Position numbers and translations under genes: made by a program | Shown: positions 373-39,472 of the stretch, piece after piece | Layout of the letters: each line of letters begins with the position of its first letter | Numbering within the stretch: the stretch's first letter is position 1 | Notes under the pieces: model-generated | What the model saw: only the letters and a program-made list of their open reading frames with translations | Told to the model about the DNA's origin: nothing | Databases searched by the model: none | Source of the DNA: a virus | Reading direction: 5' to 3' (one strand) | DNA: 43,654 nt | Virus record (IMG/VR): IMGVR_UViG_3300035670_000436 | Span: 1-43,654 of that record

Positions 373-638
373 TGAAGTTGTATGATCGTGATTTTATTCT
401 CAGCCAGTTGACCGCTATGCAGGAACAGCGCCGACTCGTCATCAGTATCCTATTTGATATGGATCAGCGGATGGAAGAGATCGAGAACTTTGTGTATAAT
501 CAGGACAAGTTGGCTAATCCTTTCCACTACGATACCATGTGTAACTGTGATGATTGTGAGTGTCAGCGGAACACGTATCGTGTGATGGTTGAGGATGATG
601 TAGATATTATGGATGATGCTTCTTACCGGATGGACTGA
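372..638 (+). CDS. hypothetical protein, 88 aa, Cys-rich (CNCDDCECQ)
   Basis: TAATG stop/start overlap with the upstream gene. No family recognised. Confidence 0.5.
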   Translation: MKLYDRDFILSQLTAMQEQRRLVISILFDMDQRMEEIENFVYNQDKLANPFHYDTMCNCDDCECQRNTYRVMVEDDVDIMDDASYRMD

Positions 639-1570
639 TGATTGTCGCTATCGACACAGAAACCACAGGCGTAGCCTGGGATGATGATGCGTTCATGATC
701 AGCATGGCATCCGACAGTTTCACGCGCATATATGATAAGCGTATTGTTTCTGATACTAAATGGGAGAACATGGTAAACGAAACTATTGTTACCCTTCGTG
801 CTGCTGATCATATTATAATGCACAATGCAAAGTTTGATATCCAAAAACTTTGTCGCCTTGGTATTCCGCTTCGTGTATTTCTTAACAAGTTTGAGGACAC
901 ACAAGCCATCGCCCACCTGATCGATGAGCATCAGTCCACAAGCCTGAAGAAACTAGCACAAAAGTATCTCAACGAAACCACAGATGAGGATGAGGTACTC
1001 AAGGCGTGGCGTCGCAAAAACAAACTGAAGAAGGAGGATGGTTATGCGCCGATTCCTAACGAGATTCTTGCACCGTACGCAGCCAAAGACGCAGAGTTCA
1101 CATTGCGGCTTTACAATTTACTTTGGCCTCGACTGCCCGAAGATCTGCACTCGTTGTATCAAACAGAGAAGGACCTAACCATTGCACTACTAGACATTGA
1201 GGCTCGTGGCATGCGAGTCGATACCAAGTATGTATTACACAAGCGTAAGGAGTATGGTGATCGGATTTACAAACTTAAGTCTCGTATTGGGAAGATTGTT
1301 GGAGAAGAGTTCAACCCGCAATCACACCAGCAGGTTCTCGCAGCCCTTGAAGAACGAGGACTCGTGGTATCCTCTACCTCCAAAGAGTCTCTTGCGGGAT
1401 TGGATGATGAACTCGCACAACTAATCCTAGAGTTGCGAGAAGCGAACAAGATCAAGGCTACGTATTTTGATGCTATGCATGAGGAAACTAAGGATGGCAT
1501 TCTTCATCCTAACTTTCGTCAGCATGGTACTCGTACTGGTCGTATGAGTAGTGGAGCAGCAGAAGCATGA
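638..1570 (+). CDS. polA: family A DNA polymerase, N-terminal fragment (3'-5' exonuclease plus thumb)
   Basis: Exo I IDTETTG, Exo II HNAKFDIQKL, Exo III YAAKDAEF. Ends ...HPNFRQHGTRTGRMSS-GAAEA*, inside the conserved TGRLSS..PNLQNIP block. The stop overlaps the next ATG (ATGA). Confidence 0.85.
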   Translation: MIVAIDTETTGVAWDDDAFMISMASDSFTRIYDKRIVSDTKWENMVNETIVTLRAADHIIMHNAKFDIQKLCRLGIPLRVFLNKFEDTQAIAHLIDEHQSTSLKKLAQKYLNETTDEDEVLKAWRRKNKLKKEDGYAPIPNEILAPYAAKDAEFTLRLYNLLWPRLPEDLHSLYQTEKDLTIALLDIEARGMRVDTKYVLHKRKEYGDRIYKLKSRIGKIVGEEFNPQSHQQVLAALEERGLVVSSTSKESLAGLDDELAQLILELREANKIKATYFDAMHEETKDGILHPNFRQHGTRTGRMSSGAAEA

Positions 1571-2343
1571 TTAGTGTCATTACCCCATTATACAATACAC
1601 CACCGAATGTTCTAGCCCGTACATGGCATAGTCTCAAGCATCAGACGTATACTGATTGGGAATGGATCGTATGGGATGATTCGCCTAATGATCTGGCGTG
1701 GCGACAAGTCTACGGATTCTGTGCAGATGAACGCTACACCATTCGCATGTATCGTAGTCACGTATCTAGTGGTATCATTGGTGAGGTCAAGCATCAAGCC
1801 TTTATGATGGGACGAGGAGATATCCTCGTAGAACTCGATCATGATGATGCCCTCACTCATAACGCACTAGAAGAGATCAGCCTCGCATTTGAGGATGATG
1901 ATGTAGCGTTTGTATACTCTAACTGGGCTGAGATCAATGAGGAAGGACAATCCTGTAGGTATCCTGAAGGTTGGGCGTTCGGTTATGGTAGGGATTATTA
2001 TGATGATGTGTACAAGATGTGGGTAATGCGAGCACCAGAGATCAATCGTACCACACTCAGTCATATCGTATCAGCCCCGAATCATGTACGCGCATGGCGC
2101 AGAATCCCCTATCATATTCTTGGTGGGCACGACACCACACTCAGAGTCGCTGATGATTATGATCTAGTAGTACGAACACTCACCACCTGCACCGGATACA
2201 AGCATATCGACAAGTTACTCTACCTACAATATATTCATGCTAACACAGCACAACGAGTACACAATAAGGAAATCCAAGACAAAGTAGCACTACTATCCGA
2301 TAAGTATCGAGAAGAAATCGAGGCTCGTTATGCCGCCATTTGA
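1567..2343 (+). CDS. family 2 glycosyltransferase (GT-A fold), inserted between the two polA fragments
   Basis: N-terminus ISVITPLYNTPPNVLARTWHSLKHQTYTDWEWIVWDDSPND plus ELDHDD (DxD-like), typical of GT2. Confidence 0.75.
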   Translation: MISVITPLYNTPPNVLARTWHSLKHQTYTDWEWIVWDDSPNDLAWRQVYGFCADERYTIRMYRSHVSSGIIGEVKHQAFMMGRGDILVELDHDDALTHNALEEISLAFEDDDVAFVYSNWAEINEEGQSCRYPEGWAFGYGRDYYDDVYKMWVMRAPEINRTTLSHIVSAPNHVRAWRRIPYHILGGHDTTLRVADDYDLVVRTLTTCTGYKHIDKLLYLQYIHANTAQRVHNKEIQDKVALLSDKYREEIEARYAAI

Positions 2344-2515
2344 TTATTACGAACAGGACGAGGATGGTAGTTGGAACTGGTATTATTGTAGCATGCTTAC
2401 AGAGAATGCGTTAGAAACCATTGAGAAGCCTTGGCCCGTATTTGCAGACTCGTTCGACGCAGCCATGAACATCTTTATGGTACTAGTAAAACTCAAATAT
2501 CATGGAGTAGCATGA
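2330..2515 (+). CDS. hypothetical protein, 61 aa, acidic and Trp-rich
   Basis: Overlaps the GT2 end by 14 nt. Its TGA overlaps the ATG of the downstream polA fragment (ATGA). No family recognised. Confidence 0.45.
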   Translation: MPPFDYYEQDEDGSWNWYYCSMLTENALETIEKPWPVFADSFDAAMNIFMVLVKLKYHGVA

Positions 2516-3255
2516 ACGTACAAAATATTCCCCGAACACAGAAGGATGTGAAACGTGCGTTTGTCCCCAAACTATCATGCTTTTTGTTCTTTGATTATAA
2601 GGCCATCGAAGTACGGCTATTGGCATACTACCTTGCCCGTGCGATTAATGATACTAGTCTCTCCCAAGAGATTATCTCCGGCATGGATCCGCACGCTGTC
2701 ACCGCTCAAGGCTTGTACGGACGAGAGAACATCAGCGACGAGGAACGTCAAACAGGTAAGACACTAAACTTTAGTATTATCTATGGTGGTGGGACACCCA
2801 CAATTATGAGGCAGTTAGGCGTGTCATACAAGGAGGCTAGGCGTCTCCTGAAGGCATACCATACTACTCGTCCTGGTATCAAGCGACTCAATGAGAGCCT
2901 CGCAGAAGCCCTTAAACGGAAAGGATACGTACAGAGCCTCTACGGTAGGCACTTGCATGTAGAAGAGGAACATAAGACTCTCAACGCTCTGATCCAAGGA
3001 TCAGCCGCAGACCTCATGCGAGACGCTGTAGTACGAGTACACAAAGAACTCGATCAGCATTATGCTAGCCATATCGTCAACATCGTACATGATGAGATCA
3101 TCATTGATGCGGACAAGAATGAGATAGAACAACTAATACTAATTATTCCTAACCTGATGGGGAATAAACTCGTAGAGAAATACGTTAGTATAGAAACAGA
3201 TTGTGAGATTAGTCATACTAACTGGGCAGATAAGGAAGAATATAATGGCAATTGA
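2512..3255 (+). CDS. polA: family A DNA polymerase, C-terminal fragment (palm/fingers, all catalytic motifs)
   Basis: Starts MNVQNIP. Motif A FFDYKAIEVRLLAYY, motif B RQTGKTLNFSIIYGG, motif C VNIVHDEIIID. GGAG lies 4 nt upstream of ATG 2512. The ORF-track start at 2431 is probably only read-through of a decayed duplicate. Confidence 0.85.
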   Translation: MNVQNIPRTQKDVKRAFVPKLSCFLFFDYKAIEVRLLAYYLARAINDTSLSQEIISGMDPHAVTAQGLYGRENISDEERQTGKTLNFSIIYGGGTPTIMRQLGVSYKEARRLLKAYHTTRPGIKRLNESLAEALKRKGYVQSLYGRHLHVEEEHKTLNALIQGSAADLMRDAVVRVHKELDQHYASHIVNIVHDEIIIDADKNEIEQLILIIPNLMGNKLVEKYVSIETDCEISHTNWADKEEYNGN

Positions 3256-7849: not shown

Positions 7850-7931
7850 GGGGCCGTGGTGAAATTGGCAGACACGACGGACTTAAAATTCGTTGCCTAC
7901 GGGCGTGAGGGTTCGAACCCCTCCGGCCCTA
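7850..7931 (+). tRNA. tRNA-Leu (anticodon UAA), type II with long variable arm, no encoded CCA
   Basis: Acceptor GGGGCCG/CGGCCCT (G1:U72). D arm GTG..CAC. Anticodon stem ACGGA/TTCGT with loop CTTAAAA. Variable arm GCCTACGGGCGT. T arm GAGGG-TTCGAAC-CCCTC. Confidence 0.85.
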
Positions 7932-7947
7932 CTATGAAAGGAGAAGT

Positions 7948-35329: not shown

Positions 35330-36050
35330 GGATAAAATAGAAAAAAAACATGCCTCTACTAATAACAACGAAAAAAGTAACAAAAAAGTGACATTAAAGT
35401 CTACTGTGCTAAAAATATTTATGGTTTAATATATATATATGTCAGTATTGGAACGGGGGATGCCCTATGCATATATGGAATATATGCTAGGAGCCTAAAA
35501 CTAGTAGTTACTAGTTTTAGTAGAGCCTGGTAATATTATACACTTTGTGTATAATATTCTAGTATTGCCGGATGACTAGTATATATATAACCCTATGGGT
35601 TATACTATATACTACTAATAATCCTATCAGCCTATATATATTATATATATAATATATATAATACTCTAGTACTACAATGTAGTACTAGGTTTATAGTACT
35701 AAGTAAGTATACTTAGTACTATACTTATACTACTAACTTTGTTAGTAGTAAAGCCAAATAATACTTAGAATAAGTATTGTTTGTTATGACACTTTGGTAC
35801 TAGACTTAGTACTACTACTTGTAGTAGTACTGGGTAATATCCTTACTTGTAAGGATATTAGTTTCTACTTCTTCTCTTATTTAAGAACTACTGTGCCTTT
35901 GGCAAGTAGTTCTATAAGAGATAGAAGTAGGTTTAGACTCTCTACTCCTATGAGTAGAGAGTCTAGGGAGTTGGCCGAAAGACCATATATCCCTTCAGTA
36001 CGGTTCTACTTCGTAACGTAGTGAGAAGTAGAACCTACTAGAAGGGAATA
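35330..36050. promoter_or_regulatory. AT-rich divergent control region containing at least 13 distinct perfect hairpins/palindromes and (TA)n tracts
   Basis: See findings for arm coordinates. No credible ORF. Lies between the divergently transcribed arms. Confidence 0.8.
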
Positions 36051-36053
36051 AAG

Positions 36054-36512
36054 ATGACCAACGACGAACTCCTCAGCAAGATCGATTCGCTGTCCGCCGA
36101 TCAGATCAACGATCTGAAGGCTGCTCTTGCTCCTTCGGAGCAGGACGAGTCGGTCGAGGTTCCGGCGAAGCCGGTCGGCAAGATCAAGTGCAAGGTCTGT
36201 GGCTTCCACAAGAAGCCTCGCAAGGTGCTGGTGGACACCGGTATCTGCAAGGTCTGCACCGATGCCGTCAAGGACGGCAAGGACGGCGAGATCGAAGTCG
36301 TCGGTCGGATGGGCAAGCGTGGCCGAAACTCCGTTTCGGTGGTGATCGACGGTCAGCGGTTCCGCGTCAAGCGGCTGTCGAGCAAGCACTCGGAGCGTGT
36401 CGCAAAGCGACACGGCAGCAAGGCCAAGGGCCATGCCCGCAAGGGCAAGCAGGGCTCCACGCCGCCGCAGGGCCTGCCCACGTCGAGCCGCCTGCCGGGT
36501 GACCCCCGGTAG
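36054..36512 (+). CDS. zinc-ribbon protein with basic tail, 152 aa, GC-rich codon usage
   Basis: CKVCGF...CKVCTD pair. G/C-ending codons dominate. GAAGGGA RBS-like sequence upstream. Confidence 0.55.
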   Translation: MTNDELLSKIDSLSADQINDLKAALAPSEQDESVEVPAKPVGKIKCKVCGFHKKPRKVLVDTGICKVCTDAVKDGKDGEIEVVGRMGKRGRNSVSVVIDGQRFRVKRLSSKHSERVAKRHGSKAKGHARKGKQGSTPPQGLPTSSRLPGDPR

Positions 36513-36516
36513 GCAC

Positions 36517-36545
36517 TTGCACCTGCCCCGCATACCTGCTACGCT
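36517..36545 (+). promoter_or_regulatory. candidate sigma-70-type promoter
   Basis: TTGCAC, 17 nt, TACGCT, about 40 nt upstream of gene 36584. The CTTGCACC word recurs at ~38128. Confidence 0.3.
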
Positions 36546-36583
36546 AAGCACACACTCACGGAAAAACCGGAGGTTTTTGTAAA

Positions 36584-36796
36584 ATGTGGATTGTTGTAGA
36601 ATCGGTACCGTTCGATTATGATGACTACGGAGTTCTTCGTTCGTATGGTCCGTACGAGTCGGAAGCGGGTGCGACGGAAGCCTGCGAGAAGTTGCGCAGG
36701 GTGTGTGCGGAGGACCTGGAGAAACTGCTCACGGTCGATCCAAGGTTTCCTTGGACTGAGTACAACTATGAGGTTGTCGAGTTGGTGATGTTCTAG
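36584..36796 (+). CDS. hypothetical protein, 70 aa
   Basis: Preceded by the SD-in-hairpin motif AAAAACC-GGA-GGTTTTT. Confidence 0.5.
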   Translation: MWIVVESVPFDYDDYGVLRSYGPYESEAGATEACEKLRRVCAEDLEKLLTVDPRFPWTEYNYEVVELVMF

Positions 36797-36824
36797 TACC
36801 AAAGGTACTACCAAAGCACGACCC

Positions 36825-36874
36825 GGGACTAATGGCGCGATGTTTGCAGGAGGGTTCGAATCCCTCAAGTCCCA
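36825..36874 (+). ncRNA. tRNA-like minihelix E1 (acceptor plus T arm only, no D or anticodon arms)
   Basis: GGGACT/AGTCCC acceptor. T arm GAGGG-TTCGAAT-CCCTC. Discriminator A. 18-nt linker. Confidence 0.5.
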
Positions 36875-37018
36875 TTGTCCACCACGAAGATTCCCCTCCT
36901 ATACGGAGTACTGGCAGGGGTAGGTGGTAAAAAGGATTCCTTTGGAATCTGTAATCGGTTCGGTTTTGGTACGAGAGTCTCCGACTTGTGCTATCCGGAT
37001 CGGGTGGACAATCCCTTC

Positions 37019-37096
37019 GGGGCCGAATGGCACGACTCTGGCGTAAGACCGCATGCGGAGCGCTAGAGTACCAGGGTTCGATTCCCTGCGGCTCCA
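37019..37096 (+). ncRNA. tmRNA-TLD-like / tRNA-Ala-like element E2 (G3:U70, no anticodon loop)
   Basis: GGGGCCG/CGGCTCC acceptor with G3:U70. Discriminator A. T arm CAGGG-TTCGATT-CCCTG. 9-bp helix 37035-37043/37061-37069 with a 17-nt cap. Confidence 0.55.
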
Positions 37097-37124
37097 TCCT
37101 ATTACCAAAACCTGGAGGTTTTGT

Positions 37125-37313
37125 ATGACAAATGAAAAGATTCATACAATCGAGTTTCGTGGTACTGTCCGTGTTCGGGAAAGCGATATGATTGCTTGTA
37201 TCAACATGATCGAAGAAATCTTCGATATGTTTGGTGCTGTTCCTGAAGATATGCACAAGTCTCGTCCTGGAACTTTCAGTATCATGACTCATCATGATAC
37301 TAACTGTGAGTAA
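37125..37313 (+). CDS. hypothetical protein, 62 aa
   Basis: Preceded by TACCAAAACCTGGAGGTTTTG. The ORF-track start at 37053 lies inside the tRNA-like element. Confidence 0.5.
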   Translation: MTNEKIHTIEFRGTVRVRESDMIACINMIEEIFDMFGAVPEDMHKSRPGTFSIMTHHDTNCE

Positions 37314-37337
37314 ATACCAAAACCTGGAGGTTTTGAC

Positions 37338-37580
37338 ATGACGGAGTACACCCTTGAGGATCAGATCGCTACGCTGCGTAAGCAGTCGGAGCGGGCGCTC
37401 GACATGCTGAACGAGATCATGGTCGCGTACATGGACCGCTGCACGGACTTGCACATCCGCCCGGACTGGGACATGTTCTGGAGCATGACGAAGGTCGCGG
37501 ACATCCTGATGGGCTTGGCTGAGGGCGAAACCGAACAGCAGTTGACCGTGCTGGTCGAGACGCTGCGCCGCGAGAACTAG
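37338..37580 (+). CDS. hypothetical protein, 80 aa, GC-rich
   Basis: Preceded by an identical TACCAAAACCTGGAGGTTTTG. Confidence 0.55.
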   Translation: MTEYTLEDQIATLRKQSERALDMLNEIMVAYMDRCTDLHIRPDWDMFWSMTKVADILMGLAEGETEQQLTVLVETLRREN

Positions 37581-37584
37581 ATAT

Positions 37585-37630
37585 CCTCTAAATAGATCTC
37601 TAAACGAAGTGAAGAGATCTATTATAGAGG
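37585..37630 (+). promoter_or_regulatory. long imperfect hairpin, copy 1 (AGATCT-containing arms)
   Basis: CCTCTAAATAGATCTCT, 11 nt, AGAGATCTATTATAGAGG. Confidence 0.6.
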
Positions 37631-37647
37631 AATCTCAGAAGGAGAAA

Positions 37648-37896
37648 ATGGTGGAACTGTTTGACATTAGCAAGGTCAGTCCTAGCAAATTGAAGAACAT
37701 CATCAAGATTGTGACGGATTGCAATGCGTTGTCGTTGACCGCTTATGGTCATTACCTTACCCCGGAGGGTAAGGAAGTGTTGCTGGATATGGTATCGTTT
37801 ATGTTCAGCAATGCTGATCCTGAGTGGAAGCATCCGATCACGGAAGTGCGTCGCCGTTCGTTCGATGCTATGCTCTGCACGATCCTCTACCCGTAA
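37648..37896 (+). CDS. hypothetical protein, 82 aa
   Basis: AAGGAG RBS before ATG 37648. Confidence 0.5.
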   Translation: MVELFDISKVSPSKLKNIIKIVTDCNALSLTAYGHYLTPEGKEVLLDMVSFMFSNADPEWKHPITEVRRRSFDAMLCTILYP

Positions 37897-37915
37897 ATCC
37901 TGAAAGGATTCTGAC

Positions 37916-38092
37916 ATGATCTACAACGTCGAGTTTGCAGACCTGCGCATGGTGTACCTGGACTATCAGAGCGTGGAGGGTTACGAATATCGTAACCTTT
38001 CGTATGCTGATATGGTCGAACTGGTCGAGTATGTGGAAGCAATGGGGTATGACTTCCATGATGTTGCTTATGTGTGGGAGGTTGCTGCGTAG
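37916..38092 (+). CDS. hypothetical acidic protein, 58 aa
   Basis: GAAAGGA upstream. Sequence MIYNVEFADLRMVYLDYQSVEGYEYRNLSYADMVELVEYVEAMGYDFHDVAYVWEVAA. Below the ORF-track cutoff. Confidence 0.45.
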   Translation: MIYNVEFADLRMVYLDYQSVEGYEYRNLSYADMVELVEYVEAMGYDFHDVAYVWEVAA

Positions 38093-38197
38093 CATGCTCT
38101 GAGACGCACATAAACGCCTCTCTGAGGCTCTTGCACCCCTGTACTTATGGTACCCTACTGGGTACCCCTACCAAACCGTTAGAAAGGCTAAAATAAA

Positions 38198-38467
38198 ATG
38201 TCTCAGTTTACTAACATTTACATGTACATTGACGTTGATGGTAACGTCGTCAGTCATGACGACCCGTATGCCTACATTATGGCAGGCTTTGGTATCGGCT
38301 GCCGCATCGTGGACATCTACATGCGCTATCCGACGTTTGAGGCGCCCATCGATAGCGAGTGGCAGTCTTTCGAGTGTGTTACGCTTTCGCATGACATTTG
38401 TTGCGTCGAGGACGTACTAGAAGCCGTTGCTACGGCTATCGGTGTTGACGACAAGGATCTGGTATAA
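38198..38467 (+). CDS. hypothetical protein, 89 aa
   Basis: The only long ORF in the interval. No family recognised. Confidence 0.5.
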   Translation: MSQFTNIYMYIDVDGNVVSHDDPYAYIMAGFGIGCRIVDIYMRYPTFEAPIDSEWQSFECVTLSHDICCVEDVLEAVATAIGVDDKDLV

Positions 38468-38487
38468 GAACTACTTATCTCTATACT

Positions 38488-38532
38488 CTCTAAATAGATC
38501 TCTGAACTTTAGTGAAGAGATCTATTATAGAG
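38488..38532 (+). promoter_or_regulatory. long imperfect hairpin, copy 2
   Basis: CTCTAAATAGATCTCT, 12 nt, AGAGATCTATTATAGAG. Confidence 0.6.
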
Positions 38533-38563
38533 AGATAGAGAGAAGTAAGGAAAGGAAAACAGC

Positions 38564-39472
38564 ATGGCAATGTCTCCCGAAATGAAAAACGATCTGTACA
38601 AGACTGTTACTACTGGTCTCATCGAGCAGATGGAGCAGGGCGTAGCGATCTGGCAGAAGCCTTGGGTTACTAGCAAGGCTCATCAGCCCCGCAACGGTCA
38701 TCATGATCGTGCATACAACGGTTTTAACCGTATCTACCTTGGTATGTTGCAGGACCAACTTGGTAGCAATGATCCTCGCTGGTACACCTTTGAGAATATC
38801 AAGGACTTGCAGCGCAAGGATGAGAAGATCAAGTTGCGCAAGGGTAGCAAGTCTACCATTGTGGTATACAATGGTCCTAGCACGTACACGGTTGAGAATG
38901 ATGAGGGTGAGCAGGAGGAGCGCACTTCGTGGCGACTCATCTACTATCGTGTCTATCATGCTAGCATGATCGAGAACCTGGCAGAGTATCAAGTTGACCT
39001 TGAGCATGAGCGTGTCGATGATATCGACATCGAGCATCCTGGTATCGAGTCTATGCGTGACTGGTGCGACCAACTTGCAGGCTTCTCGCATGGTGGTACC
39101 AAGGCATGCTACATTCCTTCGGAGGATGCTATCCGTCTACCAGAGGTTGATACTTTCCATAAGACTTCGTGGTATGCTCAGACTCTGGCGCATGAGATCA
39201 TTCATGCTACTGGTCATGAGTCTCGCATCAATCGGCTGGAGCGCACCGGCTTTGGTACTAGCACGTATGCCAAGGAGGAACTCATTGCTGAGTTTGGTGC
39301 TGCGATGATGCTTGGTAGTTATGGTATTCCGGTGGACATGGAACAGTCCGCTGCTTACCTGAAGTCGTGGGCTGAGCGGTGTAAGGATGAGCCTAGCCTG
39401 CTTGTGAGTGCGGCTAATGCGGCAGAATATGCTGCGGATTATGTAATGCAGGACGAGTACGCTGTAGCGTAG
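38564..39472 (+). CDS. ardC: ArdC-like protein (N-terminal ssDNA-binding domain plus C-terminal zincin metalloprotease)
   Basis: IWQKPW...PRNGHHDRAYNGFNRIYL...DPRWYTFENIKDLQRKDEKIKLRKGSKST and HEIIHATGH (HExxH). Confidence 0.65.
   Translation: MAMSPEMKNDLYKTVTTGLIEQMEQGVAIWQKPWVTSKAHQPRNGHHDRAYNGFNRIYLGMLQDQLGSNDPRWYTFENIKDLQRKDEKIKLRKGSKSTIVVYNGPSTYTVENDEGEQEERTSWRLIYYRVYHASMIENLAEYQVDLEHERVDDIDIEHPGIESMRDWCDQLAGFSHGGTKACYIPSEDAIRLPEVDTFHKTSWYAQTLAHEIIHATGHESRINRLERTGFGTSTYAKEELIAEFGAAMMLGSYGIPVDMEQSAAYLKSWAERCKDEPSLLVSAANAAEYAADYVMQDEYAVA

What the first reader, a model, noticed from the sequence alone, without database searches (positions are those of the whole stretch)
36794..37096. Tandem anticodon-less tRNA-like RNAs; the second looks like a tmRNA tRNA-like domain with no mRNA domain
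Seen directly:

(1) E2, 37019-37096. The 5' strand GGGGCCG pairs with the 3' strand CGGCTCC over 7 bp. This includes a G3:U70 wobble, the alanine identity element, and is followed by discriminator A. A canonical T arm CAGGG-TTCGATT-CCCTG abuts the 3' strand. Between acceptor and T arm there is no D stem and no 7-nt anticodon loop. There is only a 9-nt linker AAUGGCACG and a 9-bp helix (37035-37043 with 37061-37069) capped by 17 nt. The ends GGGGCCGAAUGGCACGAC... and ...GUAC-CAGGGUUCGAUUCCCUG-CGGCUCCA resemble, from memory, the two ends of bacterial tmRNA (E. coli GGGGCUGAUUCUGGAUUCGAC... and ...GGAC-GCGGGUUCAACUCCCGC-CAGCUCCACCA). That amounts to a tRNA-like domain plus a stub of helix P2, without pseudoknots or a tag ORF. 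I found no Ala-rich short frame.

(2) E1, 36825-36874. It has a GGGACU/AGUCCC acceptor, T arm GAGGG-TTCGAAT-CCCTC, discriminator A, and only 18 nt in between. It shares AAUGGCNCGA with E2.

(3) The spacer between E1 and E2 is closed by a perfect 10-bp helix (36874-36883 ATTGTCCACC with 37003-37012 GGTGGACAAT). It holds further hairpins (CTCC-TATAC-GGAG; AGGATTCC-TTT-GGAATCT). A 7-bp hairpin (36794-36810) precedes E1. Neither element encodes CCA.

Inference: these are not decoding tRNAs. Candidate roles are chargeable decoys or mimics (AlaRS, EF-Tu, SmpB, CCA-adding enzyme, RNase P), a minimal ribosome-rescue RNA, or bait or antidote for tRNA-targeting defence nucleases.
Basis: partly seen in the sequence, partly recalled or inferred. 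Interest (0 to 1): 0.85.

Follow-up and report, generated by a model that had tools for sequence, protein, structure and literature searches.

The report
Phage mini-tmRNA plus a smaller tRNA-like RNA
A phage carries a 78-base copy of only the tRNA-like end of the bacterial ribosome-rescue RNA (tmRNA), a known but barely catalogued phage trick that proves to be widespread, and next to it sits a smaller 50-base tRNA-like RNA of unknown role.

Summary
E2 (37019-37096) is a tRNA-like-domain-only (TLD-only) "mini-tmRNA". Rfam's tmRNA model aligns it end to end, with about 300 nt of pseudoknots and tag frame missing (46.6 bits, cutoff 47). A covariance model trained without E2 scores it 73.3 bits. 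The same model scores the one published precedent, the mycobacteriophage DS6A "TLD only" tmRNA, at 67.6 bits.

Two truncated IMG/VR scans gave at least 118 distinct family members. All that pass have G3:U70 and A73, and the acceptor, P2 and T arm covary strongly. ARAGORN and GenBank annotation miss almost all of them.

E1 (36825-36874) is a real, conserved 50-nt acceptor plus T-arm element. A relative carries a compensatory A4:U69 to G4:C69 change. E1 has G3:C70 and no P2, so it is not a demonstrable family member.

Related contigs carry E1 alone, E2 alone, or both in the same intergenic slot, so the two are separable modules. The 139-nt spacer is strongly structured but has no homologues.

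Most likely role, inferred and not shown: E2 is processed, alanylated, and competes with host tmRNA for SmpB and stalled ribosomes.

Verdict: a new member of a known kind, with moderate interest.

The parts
36794..36810 (+). A 7-bp hairpin, UAGUACC-AAA-GGUACUA, that overlaps the TAG stop codon of the upstream 70-aa gene. It marks the left edge of the RNA slot.
   Evidence: Folding gives -6.5 kcal/mol, z = -3.4. The hairpin is identical in all five locus architectures, even where the upstream coding sequence has diverged. Its function is unknown. It has no U-tract, so it is not a classical terminator.
36825..36874 (+). E1, a 50-nt tRNA 'top half'. It has a 6-bp acceptor (G1-C72, G2-C71, G3-C70, A4-U69, C5-G68, U6-A67), a connector AAUGGCGCGAUGUUUGCAG, the T arm GAGGG-UUCGAAU-CCCUC and discriminator A. 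It has no G3:U70 and no P2 helix.
   Evidence: Sequence and fold. E1 stands alone in L239 and L246. There it carries a compensatory A4:U69 to G4:C69 change, and the conserved block ends exactly at the predicted RNA ends. Covariance-model scores are 21-26 bits, inside the range that ordinary tRNAs reach (up to 34 bits). Its D-loop-like motif AAUGGCGCGA matches E2's AAUGGCACGA.
36874..37012 (+). A structured 139-nt spacer closed by a perfect 10-bp helix (36874-36883 with 37003-37012). It contains three or four internal hairpins and ends 6 nt before E2.
   Evidence: Folding gives -54.9 kcal/mol, z = -4.0, and 0 of 200 shuffles fold as well. There is no Rfam match. The only homologues are identical contigs. 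The spacer is absent from relatives that carry E1 alone or E2 alone. Its function is unexplained.
37019..37096 (+). E2, a 78-nt TLD-only mini-tmRNA.
- Acceptor: 37019-25 with 37089-95, including G3:U70.
- D-loop analogue: 37026-34.
- P2 helix: 37035-44 with 37060-69.
- A-rich bulge and apical hairpin CCGCAUGCGG: 37049-58.
- T arm: 37072-88.
- Discriminator: A37096.
   Evidence: Rfam RF00023 gives 46.6 bits, aligned globally over model positions 1-374 with about 300 model positions deleted. Model R2, trained without E2, gives 73.3 bits against 67.6 for DS6A. Family covariation is shown. Close relatives show G22.U46, then U.U, then U-A in P2.
37103..37123 (+). The repeat UACCAAAACCUGGAGGUUUUG, a 7-bp hairpin that encloses the Shine-Dalgarno sequence of the next gene. 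It marks the right edge of the RNA slot.
   Evidence: An exact second copy lies at 37315-37335 and a variant at about 36560-36580. It follows E1 or E2 in every architecture seen.

Best explanation
The locus lies in the early rightward operon of a lytic, podovirus-like phage, probably an actinophage. It holds two independent small-RNA modules.

E2 is a homologue of the phage DS6A-type TLD-only tmRNA. It has the acceptor stem, D-loop analogue, T arm and a short P2 helix capped by a small hairpin. It has no pseudoknots and no tag reading frame.

Inferred mechanism, none of it shown here:
1. The polycistronic transcript is cut by RNase P at G37019 and trimmed after A37096, and CCA is added.
2. AlaRS charges the RNA through G3:U70 and A73.
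3. The Ala-RNA binds SmpB and EF-Tu as host tmRNA does.
4. Because it cannot template a tag, it competes with host tmRNA for SmpB and for stalled ribosomes. This suppresses ssrA tagging and trans-translation during infection.

E1 is a further reduced relative or mimic of the same tRNA 'top half'. It cannot accept alanine (G3:C70). Most likely it acts as a non-chargeable competitor or as an RNase P / CCA-enzyme processing module.

The spacer is a lineage-specific structured linker. It brings the 3' end of E1 and the 5' end of E2 together.
For: Identity of E2:
- Rfam tmRNA aligns globally at 46.6 bits with the mRNA-like domain deleted.
- DS6A's published TLD-only element scores 43.2 bits the same way. 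It shares the GGGGCCG/CGGCUCC acceptor and the CCGCAYGCGG hairpin.
- The held-out model R2 gives E2 73.3 bits, DS6A 67.6 and Alone3 67.7.

A family under selection for structure (36 sequences):
- 97.3% of cells are paired against 73.7% in shuffles.
- The covariation score is 0.616 against 0.142 in shuffles and at most 0.114 for slid registers.
- G1-C72, G2-C71 and G3.U70 are invariant.
- In a scan that did not use the hairpin, 84 of 89 elements have G3:U70.

A viral family:
They yielded at least 118 distinct elements.
- Only 6 of 80 pattern hits in 596 Gb of bacterial genomes are real.

No conserved neighbouring protein was found, so host partners are likely.

Function by precedent: the DS6A-like TLD inhibits E. 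coli tmRNA, perhaps by titrating SmpB (PMC4131195 and PMC11915505, citing Mao 2009).

Modularity and exact conserved boundaries are shown. The early-region context, upstream of an ArdC-like anti-restriction gene, is shown.
Against: - There are no expression, processing, charging or SmpB-binding data for any member other than the cited E. coli experiment, which I could not read first-hand.
- E2 departs from the family consensus at two conserved junction motifs: GGCACGAC instead of GGUUUCGAC, and GUAC instead of GGAC.
- Why inhibiting trans-translation would help a phage is not established. The same data fit tag-less rescue.
- E1 lacks G3:U70 and P2, and its model scores lie within tRNA noise.
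- The spacer has no comparative support at all.
- The host is unknown.
Confidence: 0.6

Rival explanations
1. Tag-less ribosome rescue rather than inhibition. Ala-E2 with SmpB and EF-Tu enters stalled ribosomes and accepts the nascent chain. With no resume codon, the peptidyl-RNA drops off and is hydrolysed. Ribosomes are freed and phage proteins escape ssrA-directed proteolysis.
For: - All charging and ribosome-entry determinants are conserved across the family.
- CDS-less tmRNAs are retained, together with SmpB, in some mitochondria and plastids, and are thought still to help with incomplete mRNAs (PMC11915505).
- One family member lies next to a PTH2 peptidyl-tRNA hydrolase gene.
Against: - The PTH2 neighbour occurs in only 1 of 150 neighbouring proteins.
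- The cited experiment reports inhibition even for a non-chargeable version (PMC4131195).
- No release mechanism is known for a peptidyl-TLD.
Confidence: 0.22
2. Decoy or bait for host defence enzymes that attack the acceptor or T-arm half of tRNAs or tmRNA, such as CCA-end nucleotidyltransferase or pyrophosphokinase toxins and tRNA nucleases. This would apply especially to E1.
For: - Both elements keep only the tRNA top half.
- They sit in an early operon with an anti-restriction gene.
- 41 of 113 family members lie within 500 nt of phage tRNA genes.
- DS6A and Alone3 also carry RNA ligases.
Against: - No defence system is known to target the tmRNA TLD.
- The invariant G3:U70 and the conserved SmpB-side junction motifs are not explained by a generic decoy role.
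- No recurrent neighbouring gene was found.
Confidence: 0.1
3. The elements are cis-acting 'punctuation'. tRNA-like folds recruit RNase P and 3' processing enzymes to cut the early polycistronic mRNA between cistrons, and there is no trans-acting product.
For: - E1 or E2 always lies between two cistrons, flanked by conserved hairpins.
- Either element can fill the same slot.
- E1 has no amino-acid identity element that I can recognise.
Against: This does not explain family-wide conservation of alanine identity and TLD-specific motifs in unrelated phages and genomic contexts. It also does not explain the presence of two such elements in tandem here.
Confidence: 0.07
4. E2 is an attP core or a decayed fragment of a captured host ssrA gene, and is not a functional RNA.
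For: tmRNA genes are common phage integration sites (PMC10865867, PMC11915505).
Against: - Both halves of the TLD are present and pair perfectly.
- No integrase was found among the ORFs scanned.
- The family shows compensatory evolution.
- DS6A integrates at tRNA-Lys, not at ssrA (PMC10865867).
Confidence: 0.01

Closest known systems
Mycobacteriophage DS6A 'TLD only' tmRNA (JN698994 28478-28557; listed as 'Standard, no CDS' in the tmRNA database)
   Same: - Phage-encoded and about 80 nt long.
- The same acceptor stem, GGGGCCG/CGGCUCC, with G3:U70 and A73.
- An AAUGG D-loop analogue.
- A P2 helix capped by AAA(A/G)-CCGCAYGCGG.
- No pseudoknots and no tag frame.
- Similar scores with Rfam tmRNA (43.2 against 46.6 bits) and with the held-out model R2 (67.6 against 73.3 bits).
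   Different: - Different phage type and presumably a different host.
- The P2 sequence differs.
- E2 has GUAC rather than G(G/C)AC at the junction between P2 and the T arm.
- E2 sits beside a second tRNA-like element and a structured spacer.
- Neither is annotated in its record.
Bacterial one-piece tmRNA (Rfam RF00023)
   Same: The tRNA-like domain matches: a 7-bp acceptor with G3:U70, a D-loop analogue without a D stem, a T arm, and the P2a helix emerging where the anticodon arm would be.
   Different: E2 lacks PK1-PK4, the resume codon, the tag ORF and its stop codon. About 11 nt stand in place of about 300. E2 scores 0.4 bits below the Rfam gathering cutoff. CCA is not encoded.
CDS-less organellar tmRNAs (jakobid and oomycete mitochondria; plastid forms of about 65 bp)
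   Same: These are reduced to little more than the TLD and are presumed to act with SmpB without tagging.
   Different: The organellar forms are usually permuted or of independent origin. No sequence homology to them was shown here, because Rfam clan competition hides any weaker hit. They are cellular, not viral.
tRNA-Ala acceptor/T-arm minihelices and tRNA-like small RNAs such as mascRNA
   Same: E1 is an acceptor plus T-arm 'top half' with a short connector. Its best Rfam hit is a weak one to mascRNA-menRNA (19.5 bits, cutoff 42.5).
   Different: E1 has G3:C70, so it lacks alanine identity. The mascRNA hit is far below threshold and has no biological link to E1.

Membership tests
tmRNA, standard one-piece (RF00023) | A tRNA-like domain: a 7-bp acceptor with G3:U70 and A73, a T arm, and a D-loop analogue with no D stem or anticodon arm. 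| tested here: met
   E2.
tmRNA, standard one-piece (RF00023) | An mRNA-like domain with a resume codon, tag ORF and stop codon, flanked by pseudoknots. | tested here: not met
   The Rfam alignment deletes about 300 model positions. Only a 17-nt cap lies between the P2 strands. No frame with a conserved stop codon is seen in relatives (by eye).
tmRNA, standard one-piece (RF00023) | The score reaches the Rfam gathering threshold of 47 bits. | tested here: not met
   E2 scores 46.6 bits and is not reported in gathering mode. ARAGORN is also silent.
Phage TLD-only mini-tmRNA (DS6A type) | An RNA of about 60-90 nt consisting of the TLD plus a P2 helix closed by a short hairpin, encoded by a phage. 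| tested here: met
   E2. The family architecture is shown.
Phage TLD-only mini-tmRNA (DS6A type) | Sequence and structure homology to the described DS6A element and its relatives. | tested here: met
   Model R2, built without E2, DS6A or Alone3, gives E2 73.3 bits and DS6A 67.6 bits. The tRNA background reaches at most 34 bits.
Phage TLD-only mini-tmRNA (DS6A type) | Alanylation by AlaRS, SmpB binding, and inhibition of host trans-translation. | not testable with these tools
   Only the determinants G3:U70 and A73 are seen. The functional precedent is known second-hand from PMC4131195 and PMC11915505.
Phage TLD-only mini-tmRNA (DS6A type), applied to E1 | G3:U70, a P2 helix, and a model score above the tRNA background. 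| tested here: not met
   E1 has G3:C70 in both known variants. It has at most a 4-bp stub in place of P2. It scores 21-26 bits, and tRNAs reach 34 bits. E1 resembles the family in its D-loop motif and its top-half architecture. It is not filed as a member.
tRNA (RF00005), including intron-containing tRNA | A D arm and an anticodon arm with a 7-nt loop, and detection by tRNA models. | tested here: not met
   ARAGORN and Rfam find only tRNA-Leu at 7850-7932. The sensitive local scan reports no tRNA hit for E1 or E2.
Permuted two-piece tmRNA | The gene order is T arm, 3' acceptor strand and CCA first, and the 5' acceptor strand with the coding piece downstream. | tested here: not met
   E2 is colinear. 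The tmRNA_permuted model gives only 11.9 bits on the T arm. The UCCACCA that follows E1 is not adjacent to a T arm.
attP or ssrA 3' fragment | Only the 3' half of ssrA is present, with identity to a host gene and an integrase nearby. | tested here: not met
   Both halves are present. No integrase was found in the scanned ORFs. Direct identity to a host gene was not searched.

The most novel reading that the evidence does not exclude
The phage mini-tmRNAs may not be mere SmpB sponges. They could form a widespread, dedicated viral system that reprogrammes ribosome rescue, giving tag-less release that spares phage proteins. The 50-nt non-alanine E1 type would then be a second, undescribed class of tRNA top-half RNA with its own target, for example toxins that attack tRNA acceptor ends. 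The tandem E1-spacer-E2 unit would be a co-processed two-RNA operon.
Probability: 0.2. Interest if true: 0.75.

Novelty: new member of a known kind. Interest (0 to 1): 0.5.

Why it matters
Trans-translation is nearly universal in bacteria and is an antibiotic target. A single phage-encoded TLD-only tmRNA (DS6A) has been a curiosity since 2009. This window adds a clear new member. Following it up shows that the kind is common in phage contigs: at least 118 distinct sequences came from two truncated scans. Isolated Streptomyces phages also carry it.

The family is under strong structural selection with invariant alanine identity. Standard annotation misses nearly all of it: ARAGORN called 2 of 113, and Rfam scores fall just under its cutoff.

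That makes a testable case that many phages manipulate ribosome rescue. It also supplies natural minimal SmpB and AlaRS ligands. E1 and the modular slot show how such RNAs are swapped between related phages.

Tried and rejected
1. Ordinary or intron-containing tRNA. ARAGORN and Rfam find nothing at E1 or E2.

2. Permuted tmRNA. The idea was prompted by the UCCACCA just after E1. It is rejected because no T arm abuts that sequence and E2 is colinear.

3. attP remnant. Rejected for the reasons given under rival explanations.

4. A self-cleaving ribozyme (HDV-like, hammerhead and similar) or another known RNA in the spacer. A sensitive Rfam scan found nothing.

5. Conservation in TerL-related IMG/VR contigs. 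The region 35400-38600 is variable, and none of 57 loci carries E2. Only loosely E1-like elements of about 49 nt were found, in L083 and L096.

6. Pattern searches for more E1 homologues in IMG/VR and in metagenomes. They returned only tRNAs or chance hits.

7. Homologues of the spacer. None exist beyond identical contigs.

8. A conserved protein partner. None was found among 150 neighbouring ORFs.

9. A recurrent closing helix upstream of mini-tmRNAs. Enrichment is only weak: 40 of 106 against 50 of 212 at control positions.

10. Invariance of the CCGCAYGCGG hairpin. This turned out to be partly an artefact of my search pattern. In an unbiased sample only 25 of 84 elements have it, and the rest have other small, covarying hairpins.

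11. L417, with three tandem pattern matches, is an unrelated 90-nt repeat.

12. Mao et al. 2009 could not be retrieved. The supplements of the tmRNA database paper held nothing on phage entries.

Full report
**1. What is in the sequence**

- E2 (37019-37096) folds as predicted (-37.0 kcal/mol, z = -2.8). The fold has four parts:
  - a 7-bp acceptor with G3:U70 and discriminator A;
  - a 9-nt D-loop-like connector;
  - a 10-bp helix capped by an A-rich bulge and the small hairpin CCG-CAUG-CGG;
  - a canonical T arm.
- E1 (36825-36874) folds as a 6-bp acceptor plus T arm with an 18-19-nt connector (z = -1.6, not significant on its own).
- The spacer between them is closed by an exact 10-bp helix and is unusually stable (z = -4.0; 0 of 200 shuffles fold as well).
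- ARAGORN and Rfam at curated thresholds see only a normal tRNA-Leu(UAA) at 7850-7932.

**2. Identity of E2**

- A sensitive Rfam scan of 36700-37200 aligns E2 globally to the tmRNA model RF00023. All 374 model positions are covered, with about 300 positions of pseudoknots and tag frame deleted. The score is 46.6 bits against a cutoff of 47, with local E = 2e-17.
- The literature holds a direct precedent. [quoted passage not shown] - The 2025 tmRNA database paper repeats this. It lists only nine 'Standard, no CDS' sequences among 97,179 (PMC11915505).
- I located the DS6A element at JN698994 28478-28557. It scores 43.2 bits with Rfam tmRNA. It shares E2's acceptor GGGGCCG/CGGCUCC, the AAUGG motif and the apical CCGCAYGCGG hairpin.
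- BLAST also found unannotated homologues inside the tRNA arrays of Streptomyces phages Alone3, LuckySocke, GiJojo, pSt2308 and BRock.

**3. A large family**

It yielded 87 distinct elements of 76-86 nt, all with seven acceptor pairs, G3:U70 and A73.
- On a 36-sequence alignment, 14 of 21 pairs show compensatory changes. In total 97.3% of cells pair, against 73.7% in shuffles. The covariation score is 0.616, against 0.142 for shuffles and at most 0.114 for slid registers. G1-C72, G2-C71 and G3.U70 never vary.
- Covariance-model scores separate cleanly. Family members score 50-98 bits, and ordinary tRNAs in the same loci score at most 34 bits.
- A second model was built without E2, Alone3 or DS6A. 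It scores them 73.3, 67.7 and 67.6 bits. This is the membership test that does not depend on E2 itself.
- The first scan required the hairpin, so I repeated it with a pattern from the D-loop analogue and T loop only. Of 89 distinct elements, 84 have G3:U70, but only 25 have CCGCAYGCGG. The rest carry other small hairpins that covary, for example CCACAAGUGG and CCGUAUACGG. The apical hairpin is therefore a structural feature, and CCGCAYGCGG is its commonest version.
- Shorter forms of 60-63 nt, with a simple 4-6-bp P2 hairpin, also exist (48-57 bits).
- ARAGORN of 113 elements. Of the 113, 41 lie within 500 nt of a tRNA gene, and CCA is encoded in 11.
- In 596 Gb of bacterial genomes, only 6 of the first 80 pattern hits are genuine. 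Most of these are on Actinomycetota MAG contigs or short contigs. The family is essentially viral.
- Among 150 neighbouring ORFs no partner protein recurs. WhiB (3 neighbours) and DUF732 point to actinobacterial hosts, and a single neighbour is a PTH2 peptidyl-tRNA hydrolase.

**4. The locus is modular**

Exact-protein look-ups of the flanking small genes recovered five architectures of the same slot. The slot lies between the conserved hairpin UAGUACCAAAGGUACUA and the repeat UACCAAAACCUGGAGGUUUUG.

| Contigs | Content of the slot |
|---|---|
| Window, L234-L236 | E1, spacer, E2 |
| L239, L246 | E1 alone |
| L243, L244 | E2 alone |
| L367 | A 61-aa ORF, then E2 |

- The conserved blocks begin and end exactly at the predicted RNA termini, and the flanks differ between architectures.
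- E1 in L239 and L246 reads GGGGCU...AGCCCC, where the window has GGGACU...AGUCCC. This is a compensatory change of pair 4:69.
- In E2, the P2 pair 22:46 is G.U in the window, U.U in L243 and L244, and U-A in L367.
- E1 and E2 are therefore separate units, each maintained on its own. The tandem arrangement and the spacer are specific to this lineage.
- The spacer has no homologue outside identical contigs, so its structure cannot be tested by covariation.
- More distant TerL relatives lack E2. Two of them (L083, L096) carry loosely E1-like elements of about 49 nt. The L083 element has G3:U70 and sits in a similar hairpin-element-RBS arrangement.

**5. What E1 is**

- E1 shares the atypical D-loop motif AAUGGCNCGA with E2, where the family consensus is GAAGGUUUCGA. 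This suggests common descent within this phage lineage, with loss of P2.
- E1 has G3:C70 in both variants. By the established alanine identity rule it should not be charged by AlaRS.
- Its model scores (21-26 bits) lie inside the tRNA background.
- I therefore describe it as a conserved tRNA top-half RNA that resembles a maximally reduced TLD. I do not file it as a family member.

**6. Genomic context**

- The window is the whole 43.6-kb contig. It encodes:
  - a P22-like portal and a large terminase subunit;
  - a family A DNA polymerase split by a glycosyltransferase gene;
  - a primase-helicase and a ribonucleotide reductase;
  - a CHAP/PG_binding_1 endolysin.
- No integrase was found among the ORFs scanned. 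The TerL is at most 26% identical to GenBank phages.
- E1 and E2 lie in the rightward early operon, among small ORFs of unknown function and about 1.5 kb upstream of an ArdC-like anti-restriction gene.
- No convincing promoter or terminator flanks them, so excision from a polycistronic transcript is assumed.

**7. Mechanism**

Shown here:
- homology to the tmRNA TLD and to the DS6A element;
- conservation of alanine identity;
- conservation of the D-loop and P2-junction motifs that canonical tmRNA also conserves (consensus line);
- structural covariation;
- viral distribution;
- absence of a dedicated protein partner.

Inferred:
- processing by RNase P and CCA addition;
- charging by AlaRS;
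- binding of SmpB and EF-Tu;
- competition with host tmRNA, so that ssrA tagging and trans-translation are reduced.

The main rival is that the RNA performs rescue without tagging, as proposed for CDS-less organellar tmRNAs. My data do not separate the two. Decoy-for-defence and cis-processing roles are less well supported for E2 but remain open for E1. The attP-remnant reading is rejected.

**8. Verdict**

- The core interpretation of E2 is supported, but it is a known kind. The locus is a new member of it, with a new reduced companion (E1) and an unexplained structured spacer.
- The wider result is that this kind is common in phages and nearly invisible to standard annotation. That is the most useful outcome.
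- Interest is moderate.

Noticed in passing
window 36560-36583, 37103-37123, 37315-37335: Three consecutive early genes are each preceded by nearly the same hairpin, (U)ACCAAAACCUGGAGGUUUUG: a 7-bp stem with loop UGGA. The hairpin buries the GGAGG Shine-Dalgarno sequence. The same repeat forms the junction at which the E1 and E2 modules are exchanged between related contigs. It may be a translational control element, an RNase site or a recombination boundary.
   Followed up: partly
window 638-3255: The family A DNA polymerase is split into two ORFs. One carries the exonuclease domain and the N-terminal polymerase part (638-1570). The other carries the C-terminal polymerase part (2431-3255). 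A family 2 glycosyltransferase gene (1567-2343) lies between them.
   Followed up: no
L001 (Streptomyces phage Alone3) 2872-2997, and the same element in L104 (LuckySocke): Directly upstream of the mini-tmRNA lies an unannotated tRNA-like gene. It has normal acceptor, D and T arms (Rfam tRNA, 37.5 bits). A 62-nt insert stands where the anticodon loop should be. It may be an intron-containing tRNA or another anticodon-less tRNA-like RNA.
   Followed up: no
L001 about 3137-3215; L105 (GiJojo) about 728-808: An unannotated tRNA-Cys(GCA)-like element with an aberrant D region lies downstream of the mini-tmRNA. Its 8-bp acceptor shows compensatory differences between the Alone3 and GiJojo phages.
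   Followed up: no
L105 (Streptomyces phage GiJojo, PP725410) 484-726: The annotated CDS 'gene 44, hypothetical protein' starts inside the mini-tmRNA and runs across it. This is probably a mis-annotation. The homologous stretch in related phages carries no annotation at all.
   Followed up: no
L116 9838-9905, L121 (minus strand) 9063-8995, L161 474-541: In one group of IMG/VR phages the mini-tmRNA is preceded by a leader of about 70 nt. The leader has two hairpins and a long-range helix (GUGGACCUGGC with GCCAGGUCCAC). That helix shows a compensatory change between contigs and ends 3 nt before the RNA's 5' end. This is reminiscent of the window's spacer helix.
   Followed up: partly
L083 4393-4441 (minus strand); L096 255-302: Distant TerL relatives of the window phage carry elements of about 49 nt with an acceptor and T arm. 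These elements have an extra C between the T stem and the acceptor. The L083 element has G3:U70 and sits between a hairpin and the next gene's ribosome-binding site. They may be further members of an E1-like class.
   Followed up: partly
L417 13600-14051: A 90-nt tandem repeat array matched the mini-tmRNA search pattern three times by chance. It is not a tRNA-like RNA: the covariance model gives no hit.
   Followed up: yes
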